A stretch of 64,000 bases of DNA from Methylococcales bacterium (GCA_030693155.1 JAUYBJ010000057.1:10275-74274), one strand, 5' to 3'. Shown: positions 8,145-29,764, numbered from the stretch's first letter. Program-made: numbers and translations. Notes: generated by a model from the sequence alone, not told the origin.

Positions 8145-8189
8145 TTTTTAACCTTAGATTCAGCTACATGAAAATGGTACTTTTCGCGC

Positions 8190-8310
8190 GCTAAAGATAA
8201 ATGTTTTACAAAAAAATATTTTAACTAACTGATAAATAAAGAGTTATAATTTCATGTCAGACTTTATCTTTACTTTCATATATACGATAAAGTCTTTCAT
8301 GTTCGTATGA
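8190..8310. promoter_or_regulatory. Candidate TnsB-binding / tnsA promoter region with GATAAA(GTCT) repeats
   Basis: GATAAAGTCTTTCATG (+, about 8286-8301) and GATAAAGTCTGACATG (-, about 8255-8270) form a head-to-head pair. Weaker GATAAA copies sit at about 8195 and 8232. Confidence 0.35.
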
Positions 8311-8342
8311 TCTAGTTTGCTTTCAATCTTTCGGAGACGAAT

Positions 8343-9038
8343 GTGATTGTTAATAAACAAACCATAGACGAGTTAATGACTCCATCAGCTTTTAAGCGAG
8401 AGAATTATTCCGCCCATTTATATGCTCCGTATTCAATAAAGCTGCACCGTCGTGTTTATATCTATACTCATGACTCTTACAATCTTTGGGTTTTCATTGA
8501 AACCAACCCAAAAATTTCCTCTTACAATGAGGATGTTGAAAAAATTCCAATTTCACTCGAAGATGGTAATGTCATCAATATTTCACCCAGATTTATAGCT
8601 TTAAAAGTAGATGGGGTAGTCGAAGTACACACGATTCTAAATAACTCACAAAAACCATCAGATAAAAAAATAGCAGAGATTAATGCATGGCAACGTTTCT
8701 GTCAGCTCCATGGATTTAATTATCAAAATTGGACGTCAGAGGAACTTACAATTAATAAAGTTCGCCTGGCAAATTATAAAAAACTCTTACGTTATACAAG
8801 CTCACCCAATTCAGTTGTTAATCGTAAATTAGAACATCAAGTTCTGTCTGAAATAAGCAATGTTAGAAAAATCGTTTTCTATAAAATATTGCAGCATTTC
8901 CCGCTATCTGACCCAGAAGATATAAAAACGTCAATTGCTAGATTGATCATAAGTAATCAGGTTTATAGTGACTTGGATTTGTACCCATTTAGTATGCTGA
9001 CAGAGATCTCCGCGCATCATGAATTCCACAGTAATTAA
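8343..9038 (+). CDS. tnsA: TnsA-like protein with apparently degenerate catalytic residues
   Basis: …SYNLWVFIETNPKISSYNEDV…ISPRFIALKVDGVVEVHTI aligns by eye to the TnsA_N pattern S.lE…lle.dp.v.sf.eqP…YTPDF…vEVK. GTG start (alternative ATG at 8376). Confidence 0.5.
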   Translation: MIVNKQTIDELMTPSAFKRENYSAHLYAPYSIKLHRRVYIYTHDSYNLWVFIETNPKISSYNEDVEKIPISLEDGNVINISPRFIALKVDGVVEVHTILNNSQKPSDKKIAEINAWQRFCQLHGFNYQNWTSEELTINKVRLANYKKLLRYTSSPNSVVNRKLEHQVLSEISNVRKIVFYKILQHFPLSDPEDIKTSIARLIISNQVYSDLDLYPFSMLTEISAHHEFHSN

Positions 9039-10941
9039 TCGGCGAATTAAAGCCGGACTTGAAGATATTGATCACTGGGTACAACCAGAAGTTTTGGGAA
9101 TGAGTGATGATGTTAAGAATGACTTTGAAAAGAAAAAGGATGCCTTGAATCAATTTTTACAAGGATTGTCCTTTTTAGAAATTAAGGAAAACACTGGCAT
9201 TACTAGGCAACATCTCCATTATCTTATCAATCGTTGTACTGACAAAGATGAGGCAGGTAATTCGTTAGGATATTTTGGTCTCATAAAATGGAAACATTCT
9301 ACCAAAAGGGTTGAGCAAGTCTCCAAATTAGAAGCTGGTAAAGCGCTACCTGGGTCTTTGCAGGCACTATTTTCTAAAAATCCTATGTTGTTAAAAACAA
9401 TGCGAACATTAATTTTAGAGGGGATCGCTCCGGAGTCAACAAAAGCAAGTCAACATCTAACCTGGCATCAAATTCACAATATATTTTTAGATCAATGCAC
9501 TCGGATTGGTATAGCTCCACCACTTTACCCATTTTGCAGTGACTCTAAAGGTAAAGCCTCATTAATAGCTTGGGGCAAAAAAATTATTTCTGAAAACAAT
9601 AAAGGTGTTTTAGGGGGCAACCAAAATTCTGAAGATATAAGGCTACCGCCAAGCTACTGTTATGAAAGAATTGAAGCTGATGGACACTTTGTTGATGTGA
9701 ACTGGACACTGGAAGTTCAGGGGTTGAATGGTGAGGGAGTTATAATTTGTAGAGTTTCTCGTCTTTGGTTAATTGCACTGCTGGAATGCAAAAGTACAGC
9801 TGTAATTGGTTATAGCATTTCTCTAGGAAAAAATTATAACGCGGCAGACGTTACAAGTGCGATAAGAAGCAGTTTGGTTCCGTGGAAGCCACGAAAGTTA
9901 TCTTTGTCAACAATTTCATATAAGCCAGAAGAGTGTTTACCTAATGCACTAATGCCTGAATTAAGCTATGTATGTTACGACGAATTATGGCTCGACAATG
10001 CTAAAAGTCATTTAAGTGGGATTTGTCTCACGATGTTAGAACGTACCGTAAATGCAGTGCCGGTATTTGGCCCTAAAGAATCACCAAATGTTAGACCCAG
10101 AATTGAACAGTTATTCGATCTATTAGAGGAGGCCGGTATACATTGCCTTGAAGGTACCACAGGATCTAATCCAAGTGACTCAAGAAGATCTGATACAAAA
10201 GATCAGCGTTATCATCTCAAACTTGAAACCTTACTTGATCTAATAGATTTGCTTATCGTTAGATATAACACAGGCATCGCTCCAGGAACAACAATTAGCC
10301 GAAATGAAGTTTTGAAGCGGGCTGTGCAAAGAGAAACTGGCATTTTTAGACAGGTGCCAATTGCCAAACGCGATAACTGTATTAAGTACAGCATATTTGA
10401 TGAGGCGGTTATTGGAGAGGAGCGTGGAAGGCCTGTCCTGAGATGGAAAAATGCAAGATATTACGGAGCAGGGTTAAGCCTCGGTGGAAATCTGCTGGGG
10501 AAAAAAGTTCTAATCATGGCGCAGGAAGATATTCGTGAAATAGAAGTTGTATTGATTGGCGATGGCACTCCCCTTGGCAAGATGTTAGTAGAACGACGAT
10601 GGAGAAATACCCCACATTCACTCTTCACCAGAGCTGCAGTAAGAAGGTTTATGACAAACAACAGCTTTATAAGCCATGCTGCTGATATTCCACTAGCCTT
10701 CAGGGCACATATGGAAAAAGAGGTGAAAATCAATGCTACGCATCAAAGAGTGCTGGCTAGGCTACAGAAGGAGCAAGAGCGTAAAGAACAAAATATTGAT
10801 AATTTACAGATAACCGAATCTATCGAAAGTGACATTTTAAACAACGCTGAAAAACTTAAATCGGTACCTATTATAAGTGATGAAGATGATTATGATGAAT
10901 TAGATGACTTGATTAGTAGATTAGGGACGACATACAGATAG
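9019..10941 (+). CDS. tnsB: TnsB-like DDE transposase (Mu/retroviral integrase superfamily)
   Basis: Candidate DDE residues in IEADGHFVDV, ELWLDNAKSH and RPRIEQLFDLLEE. Size, position and a 20-nt overlap with the tnsA-like gene also fit. Confidence 0.75.
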   Translation: MNSTVINRRIKAGLEDIDHWVQPEVLGMSDDVKNDFEKKKDALNQFLQGLSFLEIKENTGITRQHLHYLINRCTDKDEAGNSLGYFGLIKWKHSTKRVEQVSKLEAGKALPGSLQALFSKNPMLLKTMRTLILEGIAPESTKASQHLTWHQIHNIFLDQCTRIGIAPPLYPFCSDSKGKASLIAWGKKIISENNKGVLGGNQNSEDIRLPPSYCYERIEADGHFVDVNWTLEVQGLNGEGVIICRVSRLWLIALLECKSTAVIGYSISLGKNYNAADVTSAIRSSLVPWKPRKLSLSTISYKPEECLPNALMPELSYVCYDELWLDNAKSHLSGICLTMLERTVNAVPVFGPKESPNVRPRIEQLFDLLEEAGIHCLEGTTGSNPSDSRRSDTKDQRYHLKLETLLDLIDLLIVRYNTGIAPGTTISRNEVLKRAVQRETGIFRQVPIAKRDNCIKYSIFDEAVIGEERGRPVLRWKNARYYGAGLSLGGNLLGKKVLIMAQEDIREIEVVLIGDGTPLGKMLVERRWRNTPHSLFTRAAVRRFMTNNSFISHAADIPLAFRAHMEKEVKINATHQRVLARLQKEQERKEQNIDNLQITESIESDILNNAEKLKSVPIISDEDDYDELDDLISRLGTTYR

Positions 10942-10951
10942 GAGGTGTTTC

Positions 10952-11944
10952 TTGTTAGACTCATTGAGTATCGAGCGGACAAAGTTATCTACACGCTTAA
11001 TAGCAGGTCGAGCATTTTTAATTAAAACACCTCAAAGTGCGTATTACTTAAAACAAATGAAGAATTGGCTTACCACCGGCTCGCAGGGGGCATTGGTTTA
11101 TGGTAGACCGCGATTGGGAAAAACTTCAGCAACACGTTGGACACTTCGAATGTTACCTGAATTGATTGGAAGCTTTCCATCTGTTGAAATACCAGTAAGA
11201 GGTCAAAATATCGCATCGGAAAGAGCATTCTTTCAACATTTATTGCGATGTGTTAAGCACCGTCATGCCATGGTTGGTACTGCTGGAGATAAACGTGACC
11301 GATTTAGTGAATTCCTTATATCTAGAGCATTGCGCTCCCCAATTAATGGCGCCGTATTGTTTTTTGATGAGGCTCAGTTATTACAAGATCGCCAATATGA
11401 TTGGCTATTGAATATTTCTAATGAACTGGATAAAAATGGATGCAGATTATTCTGTCTTTTAGTTGGCCAGTCAGAGCTAACTAGAACAAAGACCAGATTC
11501 ATAGATGATGGTAAGGAGCAAATAGTGGGGCGTTTTATGGTGCGGGAGTTGGAGTTTTCCGGCATAAGAACTCAAGAGGACCTAGTTTCAACATTGAATG
11601 AATTTCATAAAACCATTTATCCGATTGGTAGCGGCCAGCTTTTTGCGGAAAACTTTATTCCTCTGGCAATAAAGGGGGGCTTTGACTTAGCTTCCATCGG
11701 GCCCGCAATGTGGCAATCCTTTGAAGATCTTTGGATACGTGCTGGTCTTGAGGACAAAGTTACAATTCCTATGCATTATTTTACAGCAGCTTTAATAGGT
11801 GTTCTGAATTCACTGGTTTCTAAAGATAAAGAGGGCTGTGATGTTTCTCATGACATCATACAAAAATCAATCACAGCATCAGGGTATATTGAATCTCTGA
11901 AGATACTCAAAGCTAGGATTTCAAATGAAATTTCTAAGGCATGA
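10952..11944 (+). CDS. tnsC: TnsC/TniB-like AAA+ ATPase (short form, 330 aa)
   Basis: Walker A YGRPRLGKTSA and Walker B VLFFDEAQ. TTG start lies 7 nt after AGGAGG. Confidence 0.75.
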   Translation: MLDSLSIERTKLSTRLIAGRAFLIKTPQSAYYLKQMKNWLTTGSQGALVYGRPRLGKTSATRWTLRMLPELIGSFPSVEIPVRGQNIASERAFFQHLLRCVKHRHAMVGTAGDKRDRFSEFLISRALRSPINGAVLFFDEAQLLQDRQYDWLLNISNELDKNGCRLFCLLVGQSELTRTKTRFIDDGKEQIVGRFMVRELEFSGIRTQEDLVSTLNEFHKTIYPIGSGQLFAENFIPLAIKGGFDLASIGPAMWQSFEDLWIRAGLEDKVTIPMHYFTAALIGVLNSLVSKDKEGCDVSHDIIQKSITASGYIESLKILKARISNEISKA

Positions 11945-11959
11945 AGGTTAGGACAGGAT

Positions 11960-13684
11960 ATGTCATCAAAGATTGGTTTAGAAACTAATTCATGGAGGTC
12001 TGGCACCTTAAGACCCTATGAATCAATTGGATCAATAGGTGCAAAATATTGTTATCTAAATAAAGTTAAAACAGTCGAGTTTGCCAAGCTGATCAGAGGC
12101 TTCATTCTGGAAAATAATAGCGGAATATTCCACGAATATACACTGGACAATCCACATTTAGATATTAAAAGCTTGGCAAAATTCCTTAATGAGCCTTTAT
12201 CAATAGTCGATAAGCTATCTTTCCAAGGATTTAACCAATTACCACACCTAACTAATGAAACTGGTTTTTCATTAGATGGCAGGCATAACCTTACTTACTG
12301 TCCAAAATGCCTGTCAGAAGGTTACCATTCAACGTTCCATCAAATTAACTGGATATCAAAATGTTTTATTCACGGTGAAGCCTTAGTGCAAATAAATTCG
12401 TTAAATCGACCTATTAGTAAGCTTGGTGAGGATGCCAGGTTGATTGACGATTTATATGACATATGGTTTTCAAATGATGACGTATGGGGGGCTGCAAAAG
12501 CGCCTTATTGGGATATACAGAATCATAAAGTAGTAATAACTCAGGCGAATAAAATCATTCACGTACTGACAAGTACGGAAGCTACTCTACGAGACCAAAA
12601 CGACCATTCACAAATTTTGATTGGTCAAAACCCTATTGCAAAACTTTTGTTACAAACAATGACTAACAACAGTTGTCTTTATAATCCAATCAAAAACATT
12701 CATACTCATGAAGACATGAATGTTAAAAGTGTTATTGAATACCAATGTACACCTGAAGAGGCAGGCAATATTTTAAGGATGGCCGAAGATAATTTGTACC
12801 TTCTTATGCATTCTAGGCAAGCTATATGTGAAGCAAACGACGAATCAACGTCATGGAGAAAACTGTTAATTAATTTTAAAGATAATTTGATGAGGGGGCA
12901 TAGTGCTTGTTTGCGCGAATATAAAAAATCTTTCGAAAAAATTGAACGTATTCGAATTAGGCATAACTCGTATGTACATCCACCTTACGATATGCAGAGG
13001 TTTCGCCGTGTTCCGTGTGCTAGGATAGTTACACTTAATCTATTGCAAATACCGTTAGATTTTGAATATGAAAGCTTACTTACTGCAAGATCTATTTCTG
13101 ATATACATTTTAAAAAATCAGGTATCGATAGGATTTCCGAATTGAAAAACGTTGGACTTATAGATGAATGGAATGGCGATATAGTAAGTGATTCTCATAA
13201 GATAATGAAAAGATATACGCCTGGTAATATTCACAGGACGCATTTTGAGACTGAAAGTCGAAGAGTATCCGTTTATGTCCCTTTAAATGTACTTGCAGAT
13301 ATTATTGATGAAATACTGCTTGCTATAGCATATTCATGGATATGGGGTCTTTATATTACTGAAACGAGCGAAAAAATATTGGAAGAGAGTGGGGTGGTGC
13401 CTGAAAAATTTCTTAGGTCAAAATTTAAGGAGCTATTCCCGGCAATTATTCTACAACAATCGGTTAATGGTTTAAATCTTACAATAGGATCTATGGTTTC
13501 CTACAAGCAGCCAAATTTGACCTTAACAAAACCTGACAGGCTACAACATTTTACTAATGTAAAAAATAAGTCTAAGGAATTGGCTCAAATGTTTGATTGG
13601 GAACTTGCTGAAAGGTTAAGGTCGGCAGATTTGGAAAATCGATACCGTGGGTACATTGCTACAAATGGTCGTAATTGTCACTAG
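11960..13684 (+). CDS. tniQ: TniQ/TnsD-family target-selection protein
   Basis: N-terminal TniQ-type zinc-ribbon pattern LTYCPKCLSEGYHSTFHQINWISKCFIHGEAL. Length of 574 aa is TnsD-like. Confidence 0.7.
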   Translation: MSSKIGLETNSWRSGTLRPYESIGSIGAKYCYLNKVKTVEFAKLIRGFILENNSGIFHEYTLDNPHLDIKSLAKFLNEPLSIVDKLSFQGFNQLPHLTNETGFSLDGRHNLTYCPKCLSEGYHSTFHQINWISKCFIHGEALVQINSLNRPISKLGEDARLIDDLYDIWFSNDDVWGAAKAPYWDIQNHKVVITQANKIIHVLTSTEATLRDQNDHSQILIGQNPIAKLLLQTMTNNSCLYNPIKNIHTHEDMNVKSVIEYQCTPEEAGNILRMAEDNLYLLMHSRQAICEANDESTSWRKLLINFKDNLMRGHSACLREYKKSFEKIERIRIRHNSYVHPPYDMQRFRRVPCARIVTLNLLQIPLDFEYESLLTARSISDIHFKKSGIDRISELKNVGLIDEWNGDIVSDSHKIMKRYTPGNIHRTHFETESRRVSVYVPLNVLADIIDEILLAIAYSWIWGLYITETSEKILEESGVVPEKFLRSKFKELFPAIILQQSVNGLNLTIGSMVSYKQPNLTLTKPDRLQHFTNVKNKSKELAQMFDWELAERLRSADLENRYRGYIATNGRNCH

Positions 13685-13945
13685 ATATAGTAAGCGCTTG
13701 TTAATCAATTTCTATATCAAAATTAAAGAGATCAATTCCTTCAGATTAATATTAATTTTTTAAGAGGGCAGAATCGAACCCTAAAACTTAAGTTCTCACT
13801 AAAGCTGATGATTTTTTACGCAATGTGAACAATGTCAGTATAATCAGCTCCATGTTTGGTCGTTTTCAATAGCGACTCTGATTTAATTTATATTTATGGA
13901 CATATTGTGGTTGCAATCCTAAAATTTTAAGTGTAAATTAACCCT

Positions 13946-14308
13946 ATGAACTTTAGGTTATATAAATTAATCGTGTTGTTTACTATGCTTGTTTGTCTCC
14001 CCTTACAAGGGCTGGCAGCAATAACGATGCCTGGTTGCACGATGAATGGATCATCGGTTGAGTTACACGTTGATGCTGATAATGTAGATAGCATGCATAA
14101 TTGCCATAATGATGATAACCAACCGTCCAAAAGTACTTTTGGCAATAAATGTTCTTATTGTTTTTTGACTTTGTCACATGCTATTACTCCATTCAATATC
14201 TCTGTAGAGTTGGATAGTGGTACTGCTTTGTTTTCTGAAATGTTTGCCAAAATACCAGACTTAGTCCCAACTTCACCTTATACCCCCCCCCGATCAGCAC
14301 TTTCTTAG
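13946..14308 (+). CDS. Small secreted Cys/His protein, CzcI/CopL-like (copy 1 of 3)
   Basis: Signal peptide ending LPLQGLAAITMPGC, central CxxC (CSYC), C-terminal PP motif. Paralogs at 38185 and 42548. Confidence 0.5.
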   Translation: MNFRLYKLIVLFTMLVCLPLQGLAAITMPGCTMNGSSVELHVDADNVDSMHNCHNDDNQPSKSTFGNKCSYCFLTLSHAITPFNISVELDSGTALFSEMFAKIPDLVPTSPYTPPRSALS

Positions 14309-14620
14309 TGCTGACAGTCGTGTGTATTGCACGATAGTGTTTGCTTGGGCACTTGCTCAGTAAACTATTAACTACCAATCTTTCCGATTCTCAGCACCTA
14401 TCGACCGACAGTGGTTTATTGACGTTCGAAGTTAAGCGTATGGCTGTTGACGCCTATACACGCACGCTTATTACTTCATAACGTCTTAACCACCTCTAAA
14501 GAATTGCAGAGCGAGGTGTGTCAATGTTTAGATGTTTTTCAAGATATCCAAACATATAGCCTTGGCATTTCTCCGTGATGCAGAACCGCAGTAACCATTT
14601 ATCAATTAGGAGTATTAATC

Positions 14621-15007
14621 ATGAAGAAACACAACATTAATAAAATGATTGCAACACTTGCTGTCTGTAGTCTCAGTTTTCTATCCGTATCCGCGATTGC
14701 AGCCCAAGACGAATTTCAAAGACAGATGACTCAACAAATTATGAAAGCCAAGCAGAAGCTGAAAGAGGCAGAGGCTGCCAAAGGGGCTGAGAAAGTAAAA
14801 CTTATGGAGGAGCACATGAAAATGATGGATGACACCATGGGAAAAATGCAGAAGATGAAGCCGAAGTCAGGTATGACAATGCAGGAGCATGAGGACTGGA
14901 TCAATGAGCATCAGAAACTTATGGATGACTTGATGGGGCAGATGATGAAAGAACATCACATGCAAAAAGAAATGGGATGTATGAGTGCTGATACGCATAA
15001 GCACTAA
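14621..15007 (+). CDS. Secreted Met/His-rich helical protein (copy 1 of 2)
   Basis: Signal peptide, then KLMEEHMKMMDDTMGKMQKMKPKSGMT…EHQKLMDDLMGQMMKEHH. Paralog at 39806-40186. Confidence 0.6.
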   Translation: MKKHNINKMIATLAVCSLSFLSVSAIAAQDEFQRQMTQQIMKAKQKLKEAEAAKGAEKVKLMEEHMKMMDDTMGKMQKMKPKSGMTMQEHEDWINEHQKLMDDLMGQMMKEHHMQKEMGCMSADTHKH

Positions 15008-15010
15008 ATA

Positions 15011-15040
15011 AAACGCTGGGTGGCAATGCCCACCCAGCGT
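15011..15040 (+). terminator. Stem-loop downstream of 14621-15007 (putative intrinsic terminator, weak U-tract)
   Basis: AACGCTGGGTGG-CAATGC-CCACCCAGCGTT forms a 12-bp perfect stem. It is followed by ATTAATAT. Confidence 0.5.
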
Positions 15041-15065
15041 TATTAATATAAAAAGGCAATTGGAA

Positions 15066-15395
15066 ATGAAAAAGTTATTAATTTGTATGTTCGCAGCGGT
15101 ATTAAGTATCGCTGCTGCACCAGCTTACGCCAACGAAATTCACCATCAGGCAGCAGATAATCAAAAGAGTTATTCTGCAAAAGGTGTAGTAGTTGCCGTA
15201 GATAGCGCTTCGAGCAAGGTTAAATTGAAGCATGACGCTGTTCCTGAGCTTAAATGGCCAGCAATGACCATGTTTTTTAACGTTGCAGACAAGTCTCTGC
15301 TGGAATCAGTAAAAACCGGAGTTCAGATTGAATTCAAGTTCATTAAAGTCGACGGTGGCGGACCACTGATTACGCATATTAAAACATTGAAATAA
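15066..15395 (+). CDS. cusF: CusF-like periplasmic Cu(I)/Ag(I) chaperone
   Basis: Signal peptide and the motif HDAVPELKWPAMTMFFNV (H…W..MxM). ATG 15066 is preferred over TTG 15060. Confidence 0.8.
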   Translation: MKKLLICMFAAVLSIAAAPAYANEIHHQAADNQKSYSAKGVVVAVDSASSKVKLKHDAVPELKWPAMTMFFNVADKSLLESVKTGVQIEFKFIKVDGGGPLITHIKTLK

Positions 15396-15453
15396 GGCAT
15401 CTGGGCTGGTTTCAAGTTACCGAGCCAGCCACATTTGATGAACAGGTAGACAG

Positions 15454-16743
15454 ATGAACAAGAATAAATCACCTCTGATTCTAGCGCTAGCAATGGCAAC
15501 ACTAATGCTTCCGGAAATAGTGACTGCAGACGTACATTCTGCCAATAGTCCTATTATTGGTGCAAACGTGCAGGAATTATTAAATTGGGCTGACTCACAT
15601 AATCCAGAGCTTGCCGCAATGCGCTACGAAACTGATGCGGCCAGTGAGCGAATCGCCCCGGCAGGTGCGCTTCCTGATCCGATGTTACGTGTTGAGTTCA
15701 TGGATTTTGCCGGGCGAGATGCGCCGAATGGTTTTAACCCGTTTCCAGGGAAAGGTAGCGGGACTAAATACACTTTCATGCAGAGCATTCCACTATGGGG
15801 CAAGCGCGATTTACGTAAGGAAGTTGCTACGGCAGAACTGGAGCAATTCAAGGGGCGCAGATTGGTCAGTGTCACTGAAATTCACGCACGGATAAAGAAC
15901 GCTTATGCTCAGTATTATCAAACCATAGGGCTGAAAAAGCTTAACGAGGATATCCTGCGTCTGCTAGAGGATTTGGAGGCTGTTACTCGGGTACGCTATG
16001 CAAGCGGCCTGGTACCGCAGCAGGATGCAATACGGGCGCAAGTCGAAAAAACAATGTTGCGTTCAGAAATTATTAACCTTGAAACCGAACAGCAACAGGC
16101 CAAAGCACGACTGAATGCAACGCTTGGACGGACTCAGGATGCGTTGCTTTCAACTAAACCGGAATTGCGTCGTTTGCCTGCTGGTAAGCTGGATAGTGCA
16201 GTCTTGCAGGAAAAAGTAGCACGAACTAATCCGCTGCTTGCTACAGAGTCAGCACAAATTTTGGCGGCAGATGCTAACAAGCGATTGGTAGAGAAGAACC
16301 GCTACCCAGACGTCACGCTTGGAATTGCCCCAACGCAGATGGGCAGCAGTATTAGTAGCTGGGAGGCAATGGTGGAAGTCAACCTTCCCATCCGCTTTGA
16401 TACGCGCCGTTCTCAAGAAAGTGAGGCAACGGCAATGCTGGCTGCCGCTAAAGAGCGTCGGCAAGGAGTCGCGAATCAAGTGATAGGTGAATTGCAGGAA
16501 AATCTAGTGGCATTCGAGGCAGCAGAAAAACAAGAGCGACTTATCTCGGATACGCTGCTTCCACAAGCTGAACTGACCTTTCGTTCGGCATTGGCTGGAT
16601 ACGAAAATGGCAAGGTTGACTTCGCTACACTGCTTGATGCACAAAAAGCAATAAGACTTGCGCGGCAAGGCCAGATAAAGGCACGGGTGGAACAGGAGAT
16701 GCGCCTTGCAGAGATTGAAAAAATGATTGGGGAAGAGTTATGA
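15454..16743 (+). CDS. cusC: Outer-membrane efflux factor (CusC/TolC family)
   Basis: Size, N-terminal signal, and position upstream of the MFP and RND genes, with an ATGA overlap to the next gene. Confidence 0.8.
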   Translation: MNKNKSPLILALAMATLMLPEIVTADVHSANSPIIGANVQELLNWADSHNPELAAMRYETDAASERIAPAGALPDPMLRVEFMDFAGRDAPNGFNPFPGKGSGTKYTFMQSIPLWGKRDLRKEVATAELEQFKGRRLVSVTEIHARIKNAYAQYYQTIGLKKLNEDILRLLEDLEAVTRVRYASGLVPQQDAIRAQVEKTMLRSEIINLETEQQQAKARLNATLGRTQDALLSTKPELRRLPAGKLDSAVLQEKVARTNPLLATESAQILAADANKRLVEKNRYPDVTLGIAPTQMGSSISSWEAMVEVNLPIRFDTRRSQESEATAMLAAAKERRQGVANQVIGELQENLVAFEAAEKQERLISDTLLPQAELTFRSALAGYENGKVDFATLLDAQKAIRLARQGQIKARVEQEMRLAEIEKMIGEEL

Positions 16744-18080
16744 AACGTTCTGTAATATGGGTTGCACTAGCGCTAGTCGGTATTGCTGTTGCCGCATGGG
16801 GCGGTTACTGGTGGGGTTTAAAGCAAATTGACAAGTCATTGACCGAAACCTCAACTGGCACTGCTGCATCAGCTACAAAGAAAATTCTCTATTACCGCAA
16901 TCCAATGGGGCTTTCGGATACATCACCTGAGCCTAAACAAGATTCAATGGGCATGGATTATATTCCAGTCTATGAAGGTGATGAGGTGCAGCCCGGCCAG
17001 ATCAAGATCAGCCCTGAGAAAGTGCAGAAGTTGGGAGTGAGGACAGAGCCAGCAACGCTACGAGAATCAGTTAGGACGGTACGCGCGGTTGGCCAGTTTC
17101 AGTTAGATGAGCGTCGTCTGCACACAGTTACGACGAAGTTCGAAGGTTATATTGAAAAACTTCATGTCAACGCTACTGGTCAGCCGGTAAAACGCGGACA
17201 GCCACTGATGGAAGTGTACAGCCCGGAGTTGGTTTCAGCGCAAGAGGAATACCTGATAGCCTGGAATGGTCGCCAATCGCTCAGCAACGGTACAGAGGAA
17301 TCGCTGGTTGGTGTCAGTCGATTGGCAGAAAGTGCTCTAAAACGTCTCCGCAACTGGGATATTTCTGATTCCCAGCTACAGCGCTTGAAAAAAGATGGTA
17401 AGGCAACCCGTACGCTGACATTGTATTCCCCTGCTAACGGCGTTGTGCTGGAGAAAATGGCAGTAGCGGGTATGCGTTTCATGCCAGGCGAACCTTTATT
17501 CAAGATTGCTGACCTTTCATCAATCTGGCTTCTCGCTGATGTGTTTGAGCAAGATCTGGCACTAGTGCATGTTGGGCAGTCAGTGAATATCAGCGTTAAT
17601 GCTTATCCGGATAAAGTGCTAACCGGCAAAGTTTCCTATATCTATCCGACAGTAACACCCGAGACACGGACCGCCAAAATACGTGTCGAACTTGACAATC
17701 CAAACGGAATACTTAAGCCCGAGATGTATGCCACCGTACAATTAGCCTCAGGCCACGGCAAAGCCGATGCTTTAATGGTGCCTGATTCTGCCGTGCTAGA
17801 TAGTGGTACGCGCCAAATCGTATTGGTACAACGTGCTGAAGGCCTGTTCGAATCACGCGAGGTCAAACTCGGCATGCGCGGTAATGGATATGTCGAAGTT
17901 ATTGAAGGCATAAGTGCTGGAGAGAACGTCGTTGTCAGTGCCAATTTCCTGATTGATGCAGAAAGTAATCTCAAGGCAGCAATCGGAGGCTTCGGGCATT
18001 CTGCTCATGGCAATCAGGACAAACCAGTGACCGATAAACCAGCAACCCCTGCTGTTAGTTCTGAACATAAGGGGCACTGA
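16740..18080 (+). CDS. cusB: Membrane fusion protein (CusB family)
   Basis: N-terminal YYRNPMGLSDTSPEPKQDSMGMDYIPVY is typical of CusB-type adaptors. HlyD-like body. Confidence 0.85.
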   Translation: MKRSVIWVALALVGIAVAAWGGYWWGLKQIDKSLTETSTGTAASATKKILYYRNPMGLSDTSPEPKQDSMGMDYIPVYEGDEVQPGQIKISPEKVQKLGVRTEPATLRESVRTVRAVGQFQLDERRLHTVTTKFEGYIEKLHVNATGQPVKRGQPLMEVYSPELVSAQEEYLIAWNGRQSLSNGTEESLVGVSRLAESALKRLRNWDISDSQLQRLKKDGKATRTLTLYSPANGVVLEKMAVAGMRFMPGEPLFKIADLSSIWLLADVFEQDLALVHVGQSVNISVNAYPDKVLTGKVSYIYPTVTPETRTAKIRVELDNPNGILKPEMYATVQLASGHGKADALMVPDSAVLDSGTRQIVLVQRAEGLFESREVKLGMRGNGYVEVIEGISAGENVVVSANFLIDAESNLKAAIGGFGHSAHGNQDKPVTDKPATPAVSSEHKGH

Positions 18081-18081
18081 T

Positions 18082-21000
18082 ATGCTCAATAAAATTATTG
18101 AATGGTCGGTTCGGCATGTTTTTCTGGTATTGCTCGGAACACTTTTTATCGTAGCCTGGGGCATATATAGCGTCATCAACACACCAATCGACGCGATTCC
18201 AGATCTCTCGGATGTACAGGTCATCGTCTACACGGAATATCCTGGACAGGCACCTCAGGTAGTGGAAGACCAGGTTACCTATCCGCTCACTACTGCCATG
18301 CTGTCGGTACCTAAATCCAAAGTCGTGCGCGGATTCTCCAACTTCGGCGCTTCATTCGTGTATGTCATCTTTGAAGACGGGACTGACATCTACTGGGCGC
18401 GCTCGCGTGTGCTGGAGTACCTCAATTTTGCTGCGGGAAGATTGCCCAAGGGGATCACACCTTCGTTAGGTCCTGATGCTACTGGCGTAGGTTGGGTTTA
18501 CCAATATGTAGTTACAGCCAAGCATAAGACCCTTGATGAACTACGCTCTATTCAGGATTGGTTTGTCCGTTATCAATTGACTAAGGCACATGGAGTCGCT
18601 GAGGTAGCCAGTATAGGCGGTTTTGTAAAGTCATATCAGGTTACAGTCAACCCGCAACGCTTGCAGACTTATGGTATATCGCTCAAAACAATTTCTAATG
18701 TCATTGCTATGAGTAATCGCGATGTCGGCGGTCGCGCAATTGAGATGGCGGAGACCGAGTATGTAGTTAGAGGTAGAGGTTATTTGCGTGGGATTGGCGA
18801 CCTTGAGACCTTGGTGGTTAAGGCTAACATGGGTACGCCAGTGCTCTTACGCGATGTTGCCCGTGTTGAAATGGTTCCGGATGAGCGTAGAGGAATTACA
18901 GAGTTAAATGGAGAAGGCGAAGCGGTTGGCGGCATCGCCGTGGCTAGACATGGGCAGAATGCACTCGATGTAATCCATAATCTAAAGACTAAAATCAGTG
19001 AGATTGCATCAGGCCTGCCAGAAGGAGTTTCAATTCAGGCTGTGTATGACCGTTCAGGGTTGATTCATCGTGCTATCAGCACACTCAGCGAGACTCTTAT
19101 CCAACAGGGCATCATTGTTGCATTGGTATGCGTAGTATTTCTGATGCACGTACGCAGCGCGCTGGTGGCTATCATTATGCTACCAATTGGCGTTTTGGTT
19201 GCTTTCATTGCGATGAGGTTCTTGGGCCTGAATTCCAACATCATGAGTTTAGGTGGTATTGCCATTGCGATTGCTGAGATGACCGATGCGGCAATCGTCA
19301 TGATTGAAACATCGCACAAGCATCTCGAACGCCAATCGCCTGGAATGACTCGCACGGATGCGATCATTAAAGCATGTCAGGAAGTAGGCCCGTCGCTGTT
19401 CTTCAGCTTATTGATCATCACGGTGTCATTTCTTCCAGTGTTTACACTGGAGGCGCAAGAAGGACGAATGTTTCTGCCGCTTGCCTATACGAAGACATTC
19501 GCCATGGCTGGGGCCGCTTTGCTTTCGATTACGCTGGTACCAGTGCTGATACTGTTGCTGGTTCGTGGGCACATTCCGTCCGAACAGAACAATCCATTAG
19601 TGCGCGTAATGATATGGTTGTATAGGCCCGTGATGGTCTGGGTAATGCGGTGGAAAGGATTTATCGTCCTGACGGCAATTATATTGCTTGGGGTGACTGC
19701 CTATCCGGCGCTCAAACTGGGTACGGAATTTATGCCGACCTTGAATGAAGGCACGCTGCTTTACATGCCGTCGACATTGCCGAGTATTTCCGTTACCAAG
19801 GCGGCTGAACTGTTGCAGACACAGGATAAGATTATTAAAAGCTTTCCTGAGGTGGAATCTGTCTTCGGCAAAGCGGGTCGGGCAAATAGTGCTACTGATC
19901 CGGCGCCTTTGGAGATGGCGGAGACTATTATTAACCTCAAACCTGAAGATCAGTGGCGCCCCGGCATGACTATCGACAAGTTAATCGATGAACTTGATAA
20001 AGCAGTTCAAATGCCAGGAGTAAGCAACGCCTGGACGATGCCGATTAAGGCCAGAACCGATATGCTCTCCACGGGGATTCGGACACCGATTGGTATTAAG
20101 GTGTTCGGTAAAGACCTCGTCGAAATGGAAAAACTCGCTAAGCAGATTGAGTCTGTTGTTAAAACTGTTCCTGGAACAACAAGCGCCTATGCTGAACGTA
20201 TCACCGGCGGATACTATCTGGATGTAATTCCAGACCGAGAGGCACTATCTCGCTACGGATTGGCTGTTGGTGATCTGCTGGATGTGGTTTCGGTGGCGCT
20301 TGGCGGTGAAATGGTCACGACTACAGTGGAAGGTCGTGAGCGCTTTGGCGTTAACGTGCGCTATCCCCGAGACATGAGAAGTGATCCGCAGGCAATTGCC
20401 ACGCAGGTGCTGGTGCCAACCATGGGGGCCACGATGATACCGCTTGGACAACTTGCGCAGGTCAAGCTGGTTAAAGGCCCGCCAAGTATACGTACTGAGA
20501 ACGCGTTGCTGTCAGCATATATTTTTGTTGATATTCGTGATCGAGATATTGGTAGTTATGTTGCAGCTGCACAAAAAGCAGTTCGTGAACAGGTTAAGTT
20601 TCCTCCTGGCTATTACATCACTTGGAGCGGCCAGTTTGAGTACATGCAGCGCGCAATTGAAAAACTGAAGGTCGTATTACCAATTACCATCCTGATTGTA
20701 TTCGTACTGCTGTATTTGAGTTTCAATCGTTTCAGCGAAACGTTGATGGTAATGCTCTCTGTGCCATTCTCCGTGATCGGTGGCGTCTGGCTGATGTATT
20801 GGCTTGACTACAACCTAAGTATCGCGGCAGCAGTTGGTTTCATTGGCTTAATCGGTATCGGAGCCGAAACCGGCATGGTGATGTTGGTATATCTAGATCA
20901 GGCTCTTGAAGAGGTCAAAGCAAAACGTGAAGCTGCCAGTGAGCAACTCACCAAAGAGGATATTTATGCCGCAGTGGTGCAGGGTTCAGTGTACCGGATA

Positions 21001-21204
21001 CGTCCGGTAATGATGACCGTTGCCGGGAGTATCGTAGGCCTGTTTCCCGTTATGGTGAGTAGCGGAACAGGTTCCGAGCTGATGCGGCGTATTGCTGCCC
21101 CAATGGTGGGCGGGATGGTATCCGCCACTGTGCTGACGCTGATTGTGATTCCTGCCATTTATGCACTAGTCAAAGAGTTTTCGCTACACCGAGCGCATCG
21201 GTGA
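18082..21204 (+). CDS. cusA: HME-RND efflux pump, monovalent-cation (CusA) type
   Basis: 1040 aa. The TM4 signature [23 protein letters not shown] resembles E. coli CusA [23 protein letters not shown] rather than the CzcA DFG-DGA-VEN type. Confidence 0.85.
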   Translation: [1040 protein letters not shown]

Positions 21205-21231
21205 ATTTAACACAACCATAGGAGATATATC

Positions 21232-21594
21232 ATGAAAAATCGCACGAAATTGACCATAGCCTTGTTGGCTACATCCCTTATGCTTGGTGGCTGCGCCTCG
21301 CAGAAGCCCGCAAAACCGAGTGGTATCGAGCAACGCATCGAAAGCGCGCAATCGCCTTCGGAACATCAGGCAATTGCTGGCGAATACGAGAAGCAGGCAG
21401 CGGCAGACAAGGCCACCTCTAGAATGCACCAGGGCTTGGCAAACAAATACAAATATATAACTACGCCCAAGGGGTTTTCACCGGGATCCGCATATCAACA
21501 TTGTAGCAATTTGGCAAAGCTATACGAGCAGGCTGCGGCGGAGAATCTCGAACTAGCCAAGCTGCATCGCGAAGCAGCTGATGCGGCCAAATAG
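21232..21594 (+). CDS. Small lipoprotein, unknown function
   Basis: Lipobox LMLGGCAS. Follows cusA by 27 nt. Confidence 0.5.
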   Translation: MKNRTKLTIALLATSLMLGGCASQKPAKPSGIEQRIESAQSPSEHQAIAGEYEKQAAADKATSRMHQGLANKYKYITTPKGFSPGSAYQHCSNLAKLYEQAAAENLELAKLHREAADAAK

Positions 21595-21642
21595 CCCTAA
21601 ATGAGCGTCAAGCGTCCATTGCAGCACACTAGTTCATACCAG

Positions 21643-21768
21643 GCTGTTGTGCGGGGCTCAGTGTACCAGGTACGTCCGGTAATGATGACCGTTGCCGGAC
21701 GTATCCTTGGCCTTAACAGAACAAATTCCAGAGGCAATGCGGCGTATCGCTGTCCCTATATCTAATCA
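21643..21768 (+). pseudogene. Relic of a second cusA-type RND gene 3' end
   Basis: Clear nucleotide similarity to 20973-21110 (…GGCTCAGTGTACCAGGTACGTCCGGTAATGATGACCGTTGCCGG…GCGGCGTATCGCTG…) with an internal deletion. No upstream ORF. Confidence 0.7.
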
Positions 21769-21796
21769 TTAAATATTTTGTGACTTAAAGAGCTAA

Positions 21797-22288
21797 ATGG
21801 ACATAAAGCTTATACAAAAGGATTTTAGAGAACTCTCAGCAGTTGAGCGTCAACAAATTGAGAATGAGCATGCCCATCTAGAACAGTTTTTGTGGGAGCT
21901 GCATGAGGCATGTTGCGAGTTTGATAGCCTGAAAGAATGCCATGGATGTGACAAAGAGAAATTTGCTTCATGCCAAGGGCGACTAATTTCATTTGAATAT
22001 GTTTTTATCGATTTCGTCATTAGGCATTTTGAAAACGAAGAAAAAATTATGTCCGAAATTTGTTATACCCAAGACGCTAAAGAGTTTTTTCATTTGCATG
22101 TACAAGAGCATGAGAAATTATTGCTGGAAATGGAGAGCCTAATGCATAAGTTGTCGGTCGAGAGCGAGCAGGGATTTACGGCAGGGGCAATTCGAGAGCT
22201 TTACTATCGGGTTGCGGAACTGTTTGGTAAACATGCCGCTACCTTTGACAACTTATTGATGAATCATCCCGAAAGCGTTAAGAAGTGA
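21797..22288 (+). CDS. Hemerythrin-like metal-binding protein
   Basis: HHE-type motifs: HAHLE, RHFENEEKIM, HLHVQEH, KHAATFD (H-x4-D). Confidence 0.55.
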   Translation: MDIKLIQKDFRELSAVERQQIENEHAHLEQFLWELHEACCEFDSLKECHGCDKEKFASCQGRLISFEYVFIDFVIRHFENEEKIMSEICYTQDAKEFFHLHVQEHEKLLLEMESLMHKLSVESEQGFTAGAIRELYYRVAELFGKHAATFDNLLMNHPESVKK

Positions 22289-22356
22289 GTGTTGTGTAAG
22301 TCTCAATATGATGAGAACAGATATTTTTAAAACTTTTGAAAGAACAGAGATAATCA

Positions 22357-22938
22357 ATGCCCGAAATAATTCCTAACCTGCATCCGTTAATGGTGCATTT
22401 CCCCATTGCATTGATCAGCGTTTCTGCAATATTTCACGTGACAGCAATCGCAACGCGGGGTAAAGACTGTGCCACGCACTGCTCCGTTCTTGCTCATACC
22501 ACGCTGTGGATAGGCGCATTGGCGGCGCTGCCAACGGTCTTTTTCGGCTGGCAGGCATTCAACAGCGTGAATCACGATGAAGCCGGTCACATCGCCATGC
22601 TGCTGCATCGCACTTTGGGGCTGGCTACTTTGCCGCTACTAGTGGTTTTGGCGGGCTTCGATTTCTGGCGCAGTAAAGCTGATGCGATGCCTTCATGGTG
22701 GTTTGCCAGCGCAGTGATTGGTGCATGGGGAATGGTTGCCTCCACCGCATGGCATGGTGGGGAATTGGTTTATCGACATGGATTGGGGGTGCTTTCGTTG
22801 CCCGCTACGGAGCACGGTCAGCTCGGACATGAACATGGTTCCGTGATGAAAGACGCGGAGCATGCAGATGTAATGTCTATAGAAGATAGAGAAAAAGAAC
22901 TCTCACATGAACATTCCCATGATAAGCACGCGCACTGA
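22357..22938 (+). CDS. DUF2231-family membrane protein with His-rich C-terminal tail
   Basis: HPLMVHFPIALISVS signature. …GGELVYRHGLGVLSLPATEHGQLGHEHG…HEHSHDKHAH. Paralogous to the C-terminal half of 43006-44286. Confidence 0.65.
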   Translation: MPEIIPNLHPLMVHFPIALISVSAIFHVTAIATRGKDCATHCSVLAHTTLWIGALAALPTVFFGWQAFNSVNHDEAGHIAMLLHRTLGLATLPLLVVLAGFDFWRSKADAMPSWWFASAVIGAWGMVASTAWHGGELVYRHGLGVLSLPATEHGQLGHEHGSVMKDAEHADVMSIEDREKELSHEHSHDKHAH

Positions 22939-22986
22939 AATTTTTAACAAGAATAGTGACGAAACCACAATCTAGGAGAATCTAAA

Positions 22987-24345: not shown

Positions 24346-24403
24346 GCTTCTAAATTTCCCCATGATATGCATACCTACTGAAATTTTTAACAGGAGAAAC
24401 CCC

Positions 24404-28869: not shown

Positions 28870-28942
28870 TGAGTTTTTGTGCGCTATATGTTTTATTAGC
28901 TGTAAGTGATTTTTGACAGAGTTAACCATTAATGAGATTGCT

Positions 28943-29704: not shown

Positions 29705-29764
29705 CCTTTTAAGTTATGCACGACTGAAACTATTAGATGTCGAATTAATTAAAGGAGTGTAAAC

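What the first reader, a model, noticed from the sequence alone, without database searches (positions are those of the whole stretch)
8343..13684. Tn7-like core with a TnsA-like protein lacking the catalytic residues and a TniB-sized TnsC
Gene order is tnsA-like, tnsB, tnsC, tniQ/tnsD-like. When the TnsA_N pattern is aligned by eye, the Tn7 catalytic positions are all substituted:
- E63 in S.lE is N47 here (SYN).
- D114 in (Y/S)TPDF is R83 here (ISPRF; codon AGA at 8589-8591).
- K132 in (E/Q)VK is H96 here (EVH).

Tn7 TnsA catalytic mutants are known to switch from cut-and-paste to replicative transposition (established for Tn7). However, no resolvase or res site is visible here. The ATPase is only 330 aa (Tn5053 TniB-like), so it lacks the long TnsC C-terminus that contacts TnsA in Tn7.

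No tnsE and no cas genes or array follow tniQ, which argues against a CAST element. The downstream 47 kb of metal-resistance genes is the likely cargo.
Basis: partly seen in the sequence, partly recalled or inferred. Interest (0 to 1): 0.65.

Follow-up and report, generated by a model that had tools for sequence, protein, structure and literature searches.

The report
Tn7-like transposon with dead TnsA
This is a real, recently mobile Tn7-type transposon. Its second "cutting" subunit (TnsA) has lost every catalytic residue but is still kept by selection, so the element probably copies itself rather than cutting itself out, carrying a large block of metal-resistance genes.

Summary
The four ORFs exist as described: 8343-9038, 9019-10941, 10952-11944 and 11960-13684, all on the + strand. 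They form a tnsA-like / tnsB / tnsC / tniQ operon.

ORF1 has no Pfam hit, but it is a true TnsA homologue. A family profile matches PseCAST TnsA at E=6e-19, and Foldseek's top hits are Tn7 TnsA.
- Tn7 E63 / Pse E34 aligns with S45, not N47.
- Q130 / E85 aligns with T97.
- K132 / K87 aligns with L99, not H96.

The loss affects a clade, not one gene. Of 125 family representatives, 55 have none of the three residues, while the most distant 31 keep E/D/ExK. The dead gene is under purifying selection (dN/dS 0.15-0.23) and is fused to TnsB in some relatives. TnsB keeps its invariant DDE residues. TnsC is a genuine short TnsC.

The right end is sharply defined at 8185. It starts 5'-CGCGNG rather than TGT and is shared by eight loci with unrelated flanks. 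Near-identical copies (99.7%) sit in three different contexts, so the element moved recently.

I found no left end in 65 kb, no resolvase and no cas genes.

Best reading: TnsA is an architectural subunit only, and transposition is replicative. A natural precedent exists in Streptomyces telomeric Tn7-like elements, so this is a new variant of a known kind.

The parts
8185..8342 (+). Right (tnsA-proximal) transposon end and operon control region. The terminus is 5'-CGCGCG at 8185. Three direct repeats GATAAA[T/G]..TTAYAA lie at 8196-8211, 8231-8249 and 8286-8300. One inverted copy lies at 8256-8268, forming the inverted repeat 8253-8268 / 8286-8301. A promoter-like site TTAACT-18-TATAAT lies at 8221-8250.
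   Evidence: In eight loci with unrelated upstream flanks, conservation begins at the same CGCGNG (alignment A6). Homology of L007, L009 and L010 to the window starts at 8181-8185. The repeat motif occurs three times here and only once, by chance inside tnsC, elsewhere in 73.6 kb. The inverted repeat is kept with changed sequence in L001 and L004. The promoter scan is.
8343..9038 (+). tnsA-like gene (231 aa). It has a PD-(D/E)xK fold plus a C-terminal winged helix. All catalytic positions are substituted (S45, R83, T97, L99).
9019..10941 (+). tnsB (640 aa), a divergent Mu/Tn7-type DDE transposase with an intact triad D221, D326, E363. Its start overlaps the end of tnsA by 20 nt.
   Evidence: The three residues are invariant in 34 relatives. 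The profile hits PseCAST TnsB at 1e-8, aligning the DDE residues, and ShCAST TnsB. Among relatives, 4 of 34 hit Mu-transpos_C and 3 of 34 hit rve_3. The window protein itself has no Pfam hit.
10952..11944 (+). tnsC (330 aa), an AAA+ regulator of the short TnsC/TniB type. Walker A is GRPRLGKT and Walker B is FFDEA.
   Evidence: Pfam AAA_22 at 5e-10. Homologues extend to proteins carrying Pfam TniB PF05621. The profile hits ShCAST TnsC at 2e-4. The AF2 model has pLDDT 94, and Foldseek's top hits are PmcTnsC, I-B TnsC, ShTnsC and Tn6677 TnsC.
11960..13684 (+). tniQ/tnsD-like target selector (574 aa). It has an N-terminal TniQ zinc-finger region and a long C-terminal part with no match.
   Evidence: Pfam TniQ at E=3.6e-4, below the gathering score. 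Five of 7 relatives hit TniQ, best 4e-5. C114, C117, H123, H127, C135 and H138 are invariant. No PDB sequence match.
13685..13780 (+). Conserved tail of the core module downstream of tniQ. Homology to the 85%-identical element L010 stops near here, and different cargo follows.
13781..64000 (+). Putative cargo. It includes cusF/C/B/A, four P-type ATPases, multicopper oxidases, copA/copB, a MerR-type regulator and redox genes. From about 60.5 kb it holds toxin-antitoxin and SMODS-type defence genes. No left end was found inside the window.
   Evidence: Pfam annotation is. The cus region stays attached to the core in L007 and L009 despite different right-end flanks. No inverted copy of the right end was found in the window plus 9.6 kb of extension.

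Best explanation
The region is the transposition module and right end of a large Tn7-like transposon. It belongs to a previously unflagged, mostly proteobacterial family that is invisible to the Pfam TnsA and rve models.

**Proposed mechanism**
1. TnsB has an intact DDE triad. It binds the repeats in the end, nicks the 3' ends and joins them to a target chosen by TniQ and licensed by the short AAA+ TnsC.
2. The TnsA-like protein keeps the TnsA fold and the C-terminal winged helix but has lost the Glu/Asp/Glu-x-Lys active site. It therefore most likely serves only as an architectural partner of TnsB, and is physically fused to TnsB in some relatives.
3. Because it cannot cleave the 5' strands, strand transfer leaves a Shapiro intermediate. 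Replication converts this into a cointegrate, which is copy-and-paste transposition.
4. The conserved module encodes no resolvase, so resolution would depend on host homologous recombination or an unlinked recombinase.
5. The metal-resistance genes downstream are carried as cargo.

**Shown:** homology and fold of all four proteins; loss of the TnsA catalytic residues across a clade; purifying selection on the dead gene; intact DDE; a sharp shared right end; recent mobility.

**Inferred:** the architectural role of TnsA, the replicative mechanism, and how cointegrates are resolved.
For: **TnsA homology and residue mapping**
- The alignment maps the experimentally defined PseTnsA residues Glu34/Asp71/Glu85/Lys87 onto S45/R83/T97/L99.

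**Loss across a clade**
- Of 125 representatives, 55 have 0 of 3 catalytic positions and 31 have 1 of 3. The 31 most distant keep all three.

**The dead gene is still functional**
- dN/dS is 0.145 and 0.23, similar to tnsB at 0.106 and 0.153.
- tnsA and tnsB overlap by 20 nt.
- Dead-TnsA::TnsB fusions exist: P0060, P0064 and P0123.

**Other core proteins**
- TnsB residues D221, D326 and E363 are invariant and align to the PseTnsB DDE.
- TnsC identity rests.
- TniQ identity rests.

**Mobility**
- The 5.7-kb core is 99.7% identical in three different flanks: the window, L007 and L009.
- Homology starts exactly at 8185.
- The same terminus appears in eight loci.

**No resolution or RNA-guided system**
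- No resolvase or integrase lies within 10 kb downstream in L001, L003, L004 and L025-L028, nor among window ORFs of at least 120 aa.

**Established knowledge**
- Tn7 TnsA active-site mutants transpose replicatively (cited in PMC8649781, and PMC11406308).
- A natural dead-TnsA clade has been reported in Streptomyces telomeric Tn7-like elements (bioRxiv 10.1101/2024.11.13.623437).
Against: - No experiment bears on this, and no cointegrate or duplicated copy was observed.
- No left end, terminal inverted repeat or target-site duplication was found in 65 kb downstream of the window's right end, nor in nine other loci. Two-ended transposition is therefore unverified.
- The terminus is CGCG, not the canonical TG/CA, so the cleavage chemistry or position may differ from Tn7.
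- H96 and several polar residues are conserved in the dead clade, so a non-canonical active site is not strictly excluded.
- The AF2 model of TnsA is only moderately confident (pLDDT 77.5, shallow alignment).
- A tyrosine recombinase lies about 8.5 kb beyond the window end, and one is adjacent to the distant pMBR02 module. A linked resolvase therefore cannot be ruled out for every member.
Confidence: 0.55

Rival explanations
1. One-ended or strongly asymmetric replicative transposition. Only the tnsA-proximal end is a specific TnsB substrate, and variable lengths of adjacent DNA are mobilised. This parallels the dead-TnsA telomeric Tn7-like elements of Streptomyces, but here on circular replicons.
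For: - No inverted copy of the right end or of its repeat motif occurs in 65 kb downstream, nor in nine other loci with 5-12 kb downstream.
- Cargo differs immediately after about 13,780 between elements that are 85% identical.
- The only described natural dead-TnsA clade is one-ended.
Against: - Tn7-like cargo regions are often tens of kb, and for most loci only 10 kb or less downstream could be read.
- There is no sign of a linear replicon or telomere. The window's context is relaxase, NikA and KfrA, which is plasmid- or ICE-like.
- The same cus cargo follows the core in three contexts, which fits a fixed element.
Confidence: 0.15
2. Cut-and-paste transposition is retained. The TnsA-like protein would cleave through a non-canonical active site, for example conserved H96, E53, E63 or K33. 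Alternatively, another nuclease supplies 5'-strand cleavage.
For: - H96 is invariant in the close clade, and several charged residues are conserved.
- The protein is under purifying selection.
Against: - E53, E63, S31, K33 and R36 are equally conserved in the catalytically intact relatives and in Tn7 and Pse TnsA. They are family-wide structural or DNA-contact residues, not replacements.
- The D114-equivalent position is freely variable (R, S, P, K, L, A), and the ExK positions are hydrophobic.
- No second nuclease is conserved in the module across loci.
Confidence: 0.1
3. The TnsA-like protein has been repurposed mainly as a transcriptional or end-binding regulator. It would act through its winged-helix domain on the conserved inverted repeat that overlaps the tnsA promoter. 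Transposition would need only TnsB, TnsC and TniQ.
For: - The C-terminal region resembles winged-helix DNA binders: weak PDB profile hits at residues 164-215 and BlaI/MecI fold hits.
- The inverted repeat 8253-8268 / 8286-8301 lies just downstream of a promoter-like site. It is kept with different sequence in L001 and L004.
Against: - Natural fusions of the dead TnsA to TnsB and the translational overlap argue for a stoichiometric partner of TnsB.
- In Tn7 the right-end TnsB sites themselves overlap the promoter, so TnsB could be the binder.
- This reading is compatible with the best explanation rather than exclusive of it.
Confidence: 0.12
4. The module is an immobile, decaying remnant or a domesticated system, no longer a transposon.
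For: No left end was found.
Against: - Copies at 99.7% identity sit in three unrelated flanks with a base-precise boundary.
- All four genes are under purifying selection.
- The DDE triad and Walker motifs are intact.
Confidence: 0.05

Closest known systems
Type I-F3 CAST / Tn6022-group Tn7-like elements (e.g. PseCAST, Tn6677)
   Same: These give the best sequence matches for TnsA (6e-19) and TnsB (1e-8). They share the tnsA-tnsB-tnsC-tniQ order, a short TnsC of about 330 aa, and sporadic TnsA-TnsB fusions.
   Different: The TnsA catalytic triad is lost here. There are no cas genes, CRISPR array, TnsF or TnsE. The terminus is CGCG, not TGT. The proteins are too divergent for Pfam TnsA_N, TnsA_C or rve.
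Streptomyces telomeric Tn7-like transposons with inactivated TnsA (bioRxiv 10.1101/2024.11.13.623437)
   Same: Both show natural substitution of the TnsA active-site residues across a clade while the gene is retained, with predicted replicative transposition. The only single-sequence library hit for the window's protein is NCBIfam TnsA_like_Actin.
   Different: Those elements are actinobacterial, sit at telomeres of linear replicons, have one TGT end and are associated with telomere-maintenance genes. This element is proteobacterial (relatives in Methylotenera, Novimethylophilus, Variovorax and Burkholderia). It sits in plasmid/ICE-like and chromosomal contexts, and the loss of activity is independent.
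Tn5053/Tn402 family (TniA-TniB-TniQ-TniR)
   Same: Both have a TnsB-type DDE transposase, a short TniB-type ATPase and a single TniQ, and both are expected to transpose replicatively. Both commonly carry metal resistance.
   Different: Tn5053 has no TnsA at all and carries a serine resolvase TniR with a res site. Here a TnsA-like gene is retained, and no resolvase was detected in the module.
Type V-K CAST
   Same: Both lack a functional TnsA and a dedicated resolvase, and V-K CASTs form cointegrates (PMC11406308). ShCAST TnsC and TnsB are detectable relatives.
   Different: V-K CASTs lack the tnsA gene entirely and use Cas12k with a guide RNA. No cas gene or array is present here.
Prototypic Tn7 with TnsA D114A/E63A mutations
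   Same: Functionally this is the laboratory analogue: a catalytically dead TnsA still supports TnsB strand transfer and gives replicative products.
   Different: That is an engineered point mutant. Tn7 also has a long TnsC with a C-terminal TnsA-binding segment, TnsD/TnsE dual targeting and TGT ends.

Membership tests
Tn7-like transposons (TnsB + TnsC with TnsA and/or TniQ) | Mu/Tn7-type DDE transposase (TnsB) with an intact catalytic triad | tested here: met
   D221, D326 and E363 are invariant in 34 relatives. They align to the PseTnsB DDE at profile E=1e-8.
Tn7-like transposons (TnsB + TnsC with TnsA and/or TniQ) | AAA+ regulator of the TnsC/TniB type encoded next to tnsB | tested here: met
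   Pfam AAA_22. Homologues carry Pfam TniB. ShTnsC profile hit. Foldseek's top hits are CAST TnsCs.
Tn7-like transposons (TnsB + TnsC with TnsA and/or TniQ) | TniQ/TnsD-family target selector | tested here: met
   The evidence is weak but consistent. Pfam TniQ gives E=3.6e-4, at 21.6 bits below the 27-bit cut-off. Five of 7 relatives hit, best 4e-5. Cys/His zinc-finger residues are invariant.
Tn7-like transposons (TnsB + TnsC with TnsA and/or TniQ) | TnsA: PD-(D/E)xK endonuclease fold with a C-terminal winged helix | tested here: met
   Profile hits to Pse, Pmc and Tn7 TnsA. Foldseek 1t0f, 1f1z and 9bw1 at probability 1.0.
Tn7-like transposons (TnsB + TnsC with TnsA and/or TniQ) | TnsA catalytic residues Glu / Asp / (Glu/Gln)-x-Lys | tested here: not met
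   S45, R83, T97 and L99 occupy these positions. Of 125 representatives, 55 have none of the three.
Tn7-like transposons (TnsB + TnsC with TnsA and/or TniQ) | Ends terminating 5'-TGT...ACA-3' with arrays of TnsB-binding repeats at both ends | tested here: not met
   The right end has three direct repeats but terminates in CGCGNG in eight loci. No left end was detected.
Tn7-like transposons (TnsB + TnsC with TnsA and/or TniQ) | 5-bp target-site duplication | not testable with these tools
   This needs the left end or an empty site. Neither was recovered.
Tn5053/Tn402 family | Serine resolvase TniR and a res site; no tnsA | tested here: not met
   No resolvase Pfam hit among window ORFs of at least 120 aa. 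A tnsA-like gene is present.
CRISPR-associated transposons | cas effector genes and a CRISPR array or guide inside the element | tested here: not met
   No cas Pfam hits. No Rfam CRISPR-DR or other RNA. No repeat arrays.
Telomeric dead-TnsA Tn7-like transposons (Streptomyces) | TnsA active-site residues lost across the clade | tested here: met
Telomeric dead-TnsA Tn7-like transposons (Streptomyces) | Location at a telomere of a linear replicon, with a single transposon end | tested here: inconclusive
   Only one end was found. The context, however, is relaxase/NikA/KfrA or a chromosomal tmk-holB-pilZ-tatD region, with no telomere genes seen.

The most novel reading that the evidence does not exclude
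This proteobacterial family may use a dead TnsA as an obligatory scaffold and only one specific end, the non-canonical CGCG terminus. It would then mobilise variable stretches of adjacent DNA (metal-resistance and defence islands) by one-ended replicative transposition on circular replicons. That would be a circular-genome counterpart of the telomeric one-ended Tn7-like elements.
Probability: 0.12. Interest if true: 0.85.

Novelty: new variant of a known kind. Interest (0 to 1): 0.6.

Why it matters
Tn7-like elements are the chassis of CRISPR-guided transposases, and whether TnsA cuts decides between clean insertions and cointegrates. Three points make this element useful.

- **A natural experiment on TnsA.** A large clade has kept TnsA for millions of years after destroying its active site, and sometimes fuses it to TnsB. 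This bears directly on TnsA's non-catalytic role in assembling and licensing TnsB and TnsC.
- **A blind spot in surveys.** The family escapes the Pfam models (TnsA_N, TnsA_C, rve) used in published censuses of Tn7-like elements. Such surveys would score these elements as absent.
- **Practical relevance.** The family moves large copper, silver and other metal-resistance islands, together with defence islands, between chromosomes and conjugative-type backbones.

The non-TGT terminus and the missing second end are unexplained and can be tested cheaply.

Tried and rejected
**Sequence searches that found nothing useful**
- Single-sequence Pfam and PDB searches of ORF1 and ORF2 found nothing. Only family profiles worked.
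- The 10-sequence TnsA profile also failed against PDB.
- Megablast of the module against plasmids found no match.
- The shallow TnsC and TniQ profiles gave no PDB hits.

**Search for the left end**
- The exact and 2-mismatch terminal motif gave no convincing inverted copy.
- Short BLAST of the right end gave nothing beyond chance-level matches.
- The pattern CGCGNG-N17-ACA found no convincing left end.
- The repeat-motif scan found no cluster outside the right end.
- Smith-Waterman alignment against shuffled controls in ten loci was at background level throughout.
- A TTAGCGCGCG match in L001 at 18081 lies inside a conserved coding region and was rejected.
- The L019/L020 breakpoint at the stop codon of the S8-peptidase gene is a cassette swap, not a transposon end.

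**Hypotheses considered and rejected**
- I considered that the element is only the 5.6-kb core inserted next to cus clusters. Three different right-end flanks share the same downstream cus DNA, so I rejected this.
- Tn6048 of Cupriavidus was checked as a possible named relative. The text held gave no usable description.

Full report
**1. What is in the sequence**

The window has four co-directional ORFs:
- 8343-9038 (231 aa, GTG start)
- 9019-10941 (640 aa)
- 10952-11944 (330 aa)
- 11960-13684 (574 aa)

The first two overlap by 20 nt.

Single-sequence library searches say very little.
- ORF1 and ORF2 have no Pfam hit at E<=1.
- ORF3 hits AAA_22 at 5e-10.
- ORF4 hits TniQ at 3.6e-4, below the curated cut-off.
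- ORF1's only hit is NCBIfam TnsA_like_Actin at 7e-4.
- phmmer against PDB finds nothing useful.

**2. ORF1 is a genuine TnsA homologue**

A word-indexed search found only nine relatives. An exhaustive profile search of 1.8 billion cluster representatives found 312 at E<=1e-3 and 49 at E<=1e-30.

A 125-sequence alignment (A4) used as a profile hits:
- the TnsA part of the PseCAST TnsAB fusion at 5.9e-19
- the 9bw1 TnsA-TnsB fusion at 1.8e-10
- Tn7 TnsA (1f1z, 1t0f) at 4e-4

An AlphaFold2 model (best model pLDDT 77.5, pTM 0.75) has Tn7 TnsA 1t0f/1f1z and 9bw1_M as its only Foldseek matches at E<=0.001, all at probability 1.0. The C-terminal third resembles winged-helix domains, as in TnsA (weaker hits).

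**3.

The PseTnsA active site is experimentally defined as Glu34, Asp71 and Lys87, with Glu85 also binding the metal (PMC13598128). Allowing for a two-residue offset in the fusion construct, the HMM alignment places these residues opposite particular profile columns. In the window protein those columns hold S45, R83, T97 and L99.

The alignment to Tn7 TnsA puts E63 (SDLE) opposite the same column as S45. It puts the family-invariant E53 opposite the non-catalytic E71.

- R83 for D114 is correct.
- N47 should be S45.
- H96 should be L99, with T97 for Q130.

The codons were verified: TCT at 8475, AGA at 8589, ACG at 8631 and CTA at 8637.

**4. The loss is a property of a clade**

In A4 the roughly 60 closest representatives carry S/N/G/A/R at position 45. 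They carry almost anything at position 83 and hydrophobic or small residues at 97 and 99. The most distant members read D-L-E-Y-D ... (F/P)-D-M ... E-(V/I)-K.

Counting acidic-45, acidic-83 and K99 across the 125 representatives gives:

| Catalytic positions kept | Representatives |
|---|---|
| 0 of 3 | 55 |
| 1 of 3 | 31 |
| 2 of 3 | 8 |
| 3 of 3 | 31 |

Residues conserved in the dead clade (S31, K33, R36, E53, N62/E63) are equally conserved in the active relatives. They are therefore not compensatory replacements.

**5. The dead gene is maintained by selection**

| Pair | tnsA-like | tnsB | tnsC | tniQ |
|---|---|---|---|---|
| Window vs L010 (85% identical element) | 0.145 | 0.106 | 0.077 | 0.196 |
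| L001 vs L002 | 0.23 | 0.153 | 0.089 | not computed |

All values are dN/dS.

Three representatives (P0060, P0064, P0123; 926-946 aa) are natural fusions of a dead TnsA to TnsB. Together with the tnsA/tnsB overlap, this argues for a stoichiometric, non-catalytic partnership with TnsB.

**6. The other three proteins**

*TnsB.* Seventy-one relatives were found. In 34 of them D221, D326 and E363 are invariant. The profile hits PseCAST TnsB at 1e-8 with those residues aligned to its DDE, and also hits ShCAST TnsB. A few relatives reach Pfam Mu-transpos_C, rve_3 or rve.

*TnsC.*
- Homologues extend to proteins carrying Pfam TniB.
- The profile hits ShCAST TnsC at 2e-4.
- A confident model (pLDDT 94.4) has PmcTnsC, type I-B TnsC, ShTnsC and Tn6677 TnsC among its top six Foldseek hits. 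A fifth TnsC structure, the 8v32 TnsD-TnsC complex, ranks 15th.

Those TnsCs are 257-333 aa in the solved structures and mostly work with active TnsA. Reviews state that the Tn7 C-terminal TnsA-binding segment is missing in many Tn7-like elements (Tn6022). The short TnsC is therefore ordinary, not a sign of lost TnsA contact.

*TniQ.* Five of seven relatives hit Pfam TniQ (best 4e-5), and the Cys/His zinc-finger residues are invariant. The long C-terminal part has no detectable relatives of known structure.

**7. A defined, non-canonical right end**

I aligned the regions upstream of the tnsA-like gene from eight loci whose flanks are unrelated. Conservation begins at exactly one point, 5'-CGCGNG (window 8185). 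An ACA lies about 24 nt inside, and the same feature is seen in L025.

The end contains three direct repeats GATAAA[T/G]..TTAYAA at 8196, 8231 and 8286, plus one inverted copy. The motif occurs only once elsewhere in 73.6 kb. The inverted repeat 8253-8268 / 8286-8301 follows a promoter-like site. It is preserved with different sequence in L001 and L004.

A CGCG terminus instead of TGT is unusual for Tn7/Mu-type transposases.

**8. Recent mobility and cargo**

| Locus | Homology to window | Identity | Upstream flank |
|---|---|---|---|
| L007 | 8185-13871, then the cus region | 99.7%, then 93% | different from the window |
| L009 | 8185-20936 | 96% | different from the window |
| L010 | 8181-13685 (about 100 bp more at lower identity) | 85% | same locus as L009 |

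After its core, L010 carries different DNA.

The core is therefore about 8185-13780, and the cus genes move with it.

The window copy sits in a plasmid- or ICE-like backbone.
- A relaxase and NikA lie just upstream of the window start (L006).
- KfrA, a tyrosine recombinase and a mer operon lie beyond its end. This comes from L019, which is identical to window 52306-64000.

L001, L002, L007 and L009 lie in a chromosomal tmk-holB-pilZ-tatD neighbourhood. L009 and L010 share the same flank, with insertion points 16 bp apart. This hints at a preferred chromosomal region.

The window cargo is metal resistance: CusF/C/B/A, four P-type ATPases, multicopper oxidases, CopA/B and a MerR-type regulator. 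Toxin-antitoxin and SMODS-type defence genes follow.

**9. What is missing**

- No resolvase or integrase domain occurs in window ORFs of at least 120 aa.
- No recombinase lies within 10 kb downstream in seven other loci.
- No cas genes, Rfam RNAs or arrays were found.
- No left end was found in the window plus 9.6 kb of extension, nor in nine other loci, by four different searches (and the BLAST runs).

**10. Interpretation**

The best-supported model is a Tn7-like element in which TnsB performs 3' nicking and strand transfer under TniQ and TnsC control. TnsA survives only as a scaffold. The expected consequence is replicative transposition through a cointegrate, as established for Tn7 TnsA active-site mutants. 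That work is cited in PMC8649781 and PMC11406308.

With no module-encoded resolvase, resolution would fall to host recombination, as proposed for V-K CASTs.

The main rivals are one-ended transposition, residual non-canonical nuclease activity, and a chiefly regulatory role for the winged helix.

**11. Novelty**

Natural inactivation of TnsA has been reported once that I could find. It occurs in Streptomyces telomeric Tn7-like transposons, where it is linked to one-ended transposition (bioRxiv 10.1101/2024.11.13.623437). Large censuses note tnsA-less branches that gain resolvases, but not dead-TnsA branches (PMC8649781).

The present family differs from that precedent in several ways:
- It is proteobacterial.
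- It is independent of the Streptomyces case.
- It is large.
- It is undetectable with the Pfam models those censuses used.
- It has a CGCG terminus.
- It has no linked resolvase.

I rate it a new variant of a known kind, of moderate to good interest.

Noticed in passing
window 8185-8190 and the equivalent positions in L001, L002, L004, L010, L013, L014, L015 and L025: The transposon terminus is 5'-CGCGNG rather than the TGT typical of Tn7/Mu-type elements. An ACA lies about 24 nt inside. The feature holds down to relatives with 42% TnsB identity.
   Followed up: partly
window 8253-8268 / 8286-8301: An inverted repeat lies just downstream of a promoter-like site in front of the tnsA-like gene. 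It is kept with different sequence in L001 (GTTTATC / GATAAAC) and L004 (GTCAGGACTTATC / GATAAGTCCTGAC). It is a possible operator or a divergent pair of TnsB sites.
   Followed up: partly
L001, L002, L007, L009 (and L010) upstream flanks: Elements from lineages only about 68% identical in DNA sit in the same chromosomal neighbourhood downstream of tmk-holB-pilZ-tatD and a metallo-beta-lactamase-fold gene. L009 and L010 share a flank, with insertion points 16 bp apart. This may be an attachment hot spot.
   Followed up: partly
window 13870/13871; L007 13763-15257: Identity between the window and L007 drops from 99.7% to 93% exactly where L007 carries an extra 1.5 kb (a 150-aa ORF plus an HTH protein). 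This suggests recombinational exchange of the core or the cargo between elements.
   Followed up: no
window 13760-13790 (- strand): The sequence AGGGTTCGATTCTGCCCT resembles a tRNA T-arm right where homology to L010 ends. ARAGORN finds no tRNA in the window.
   Followed up: no
window 150-8144 and L006: The backbone next to the right end looks like a plasmid or ICE. It holds a DUF6088 / DUF6036-KfrB pair, a PT-TG toxin-domain protein, a PstI/BsuBI-type restriction-modification pair (3863-6771) and an unannotated 458-aa ORF (6768-8144, - strand). A relaxase and NikA lie just upstream of the window start.
   Followed up: partly
window 60530-64000 and L019 1-9622: A defence cluster lies at the far side. 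It comprises an Xre/ParS-type antitoxin pair, an Rv2179c-like exonuclease, a SMODS+AGS-C nucleotide synthase, SLATT_6, and an AAA ATPase with an S8 peptidase. Beyond it come merRTPC, a tyrosine recombinase and KfrA. L020 carries a different cassette after the S8 peptidase gene.
   Followed up: partly
window 13946-15395 versus 38185-40186: The metal-resistance region contains a duplicated small-gene module: a signal-peptide Cys-rich protein, a Met/His-rich periplasmic protein and CusF. This suggests the cargo was assembled from repeated cassettes.
   Followed up: no
window 40346-41593: A 415-aa ORF has no Pfam hit but has a PD-(D/E)xK-like motif (IDVIWID ... AFEVEKS) in its C-terminal part. It sits inside the cargo in a low-GC stretch.
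   Followed up: no
L030 (Burkholderia sp. MBR-1 plasmid pMBR02, NZ_CP053613.1 38938-43934): A complete conjugative plasmid carries a distant member of the family (about 27% TnsB identity). Its TnsA-like protein also lacks the Glu and the ExK. The module lies next to a 702-aa phage-integrase-family gene and parAB/rep, and IS elements lie downstream of it.
   Followed up: partly
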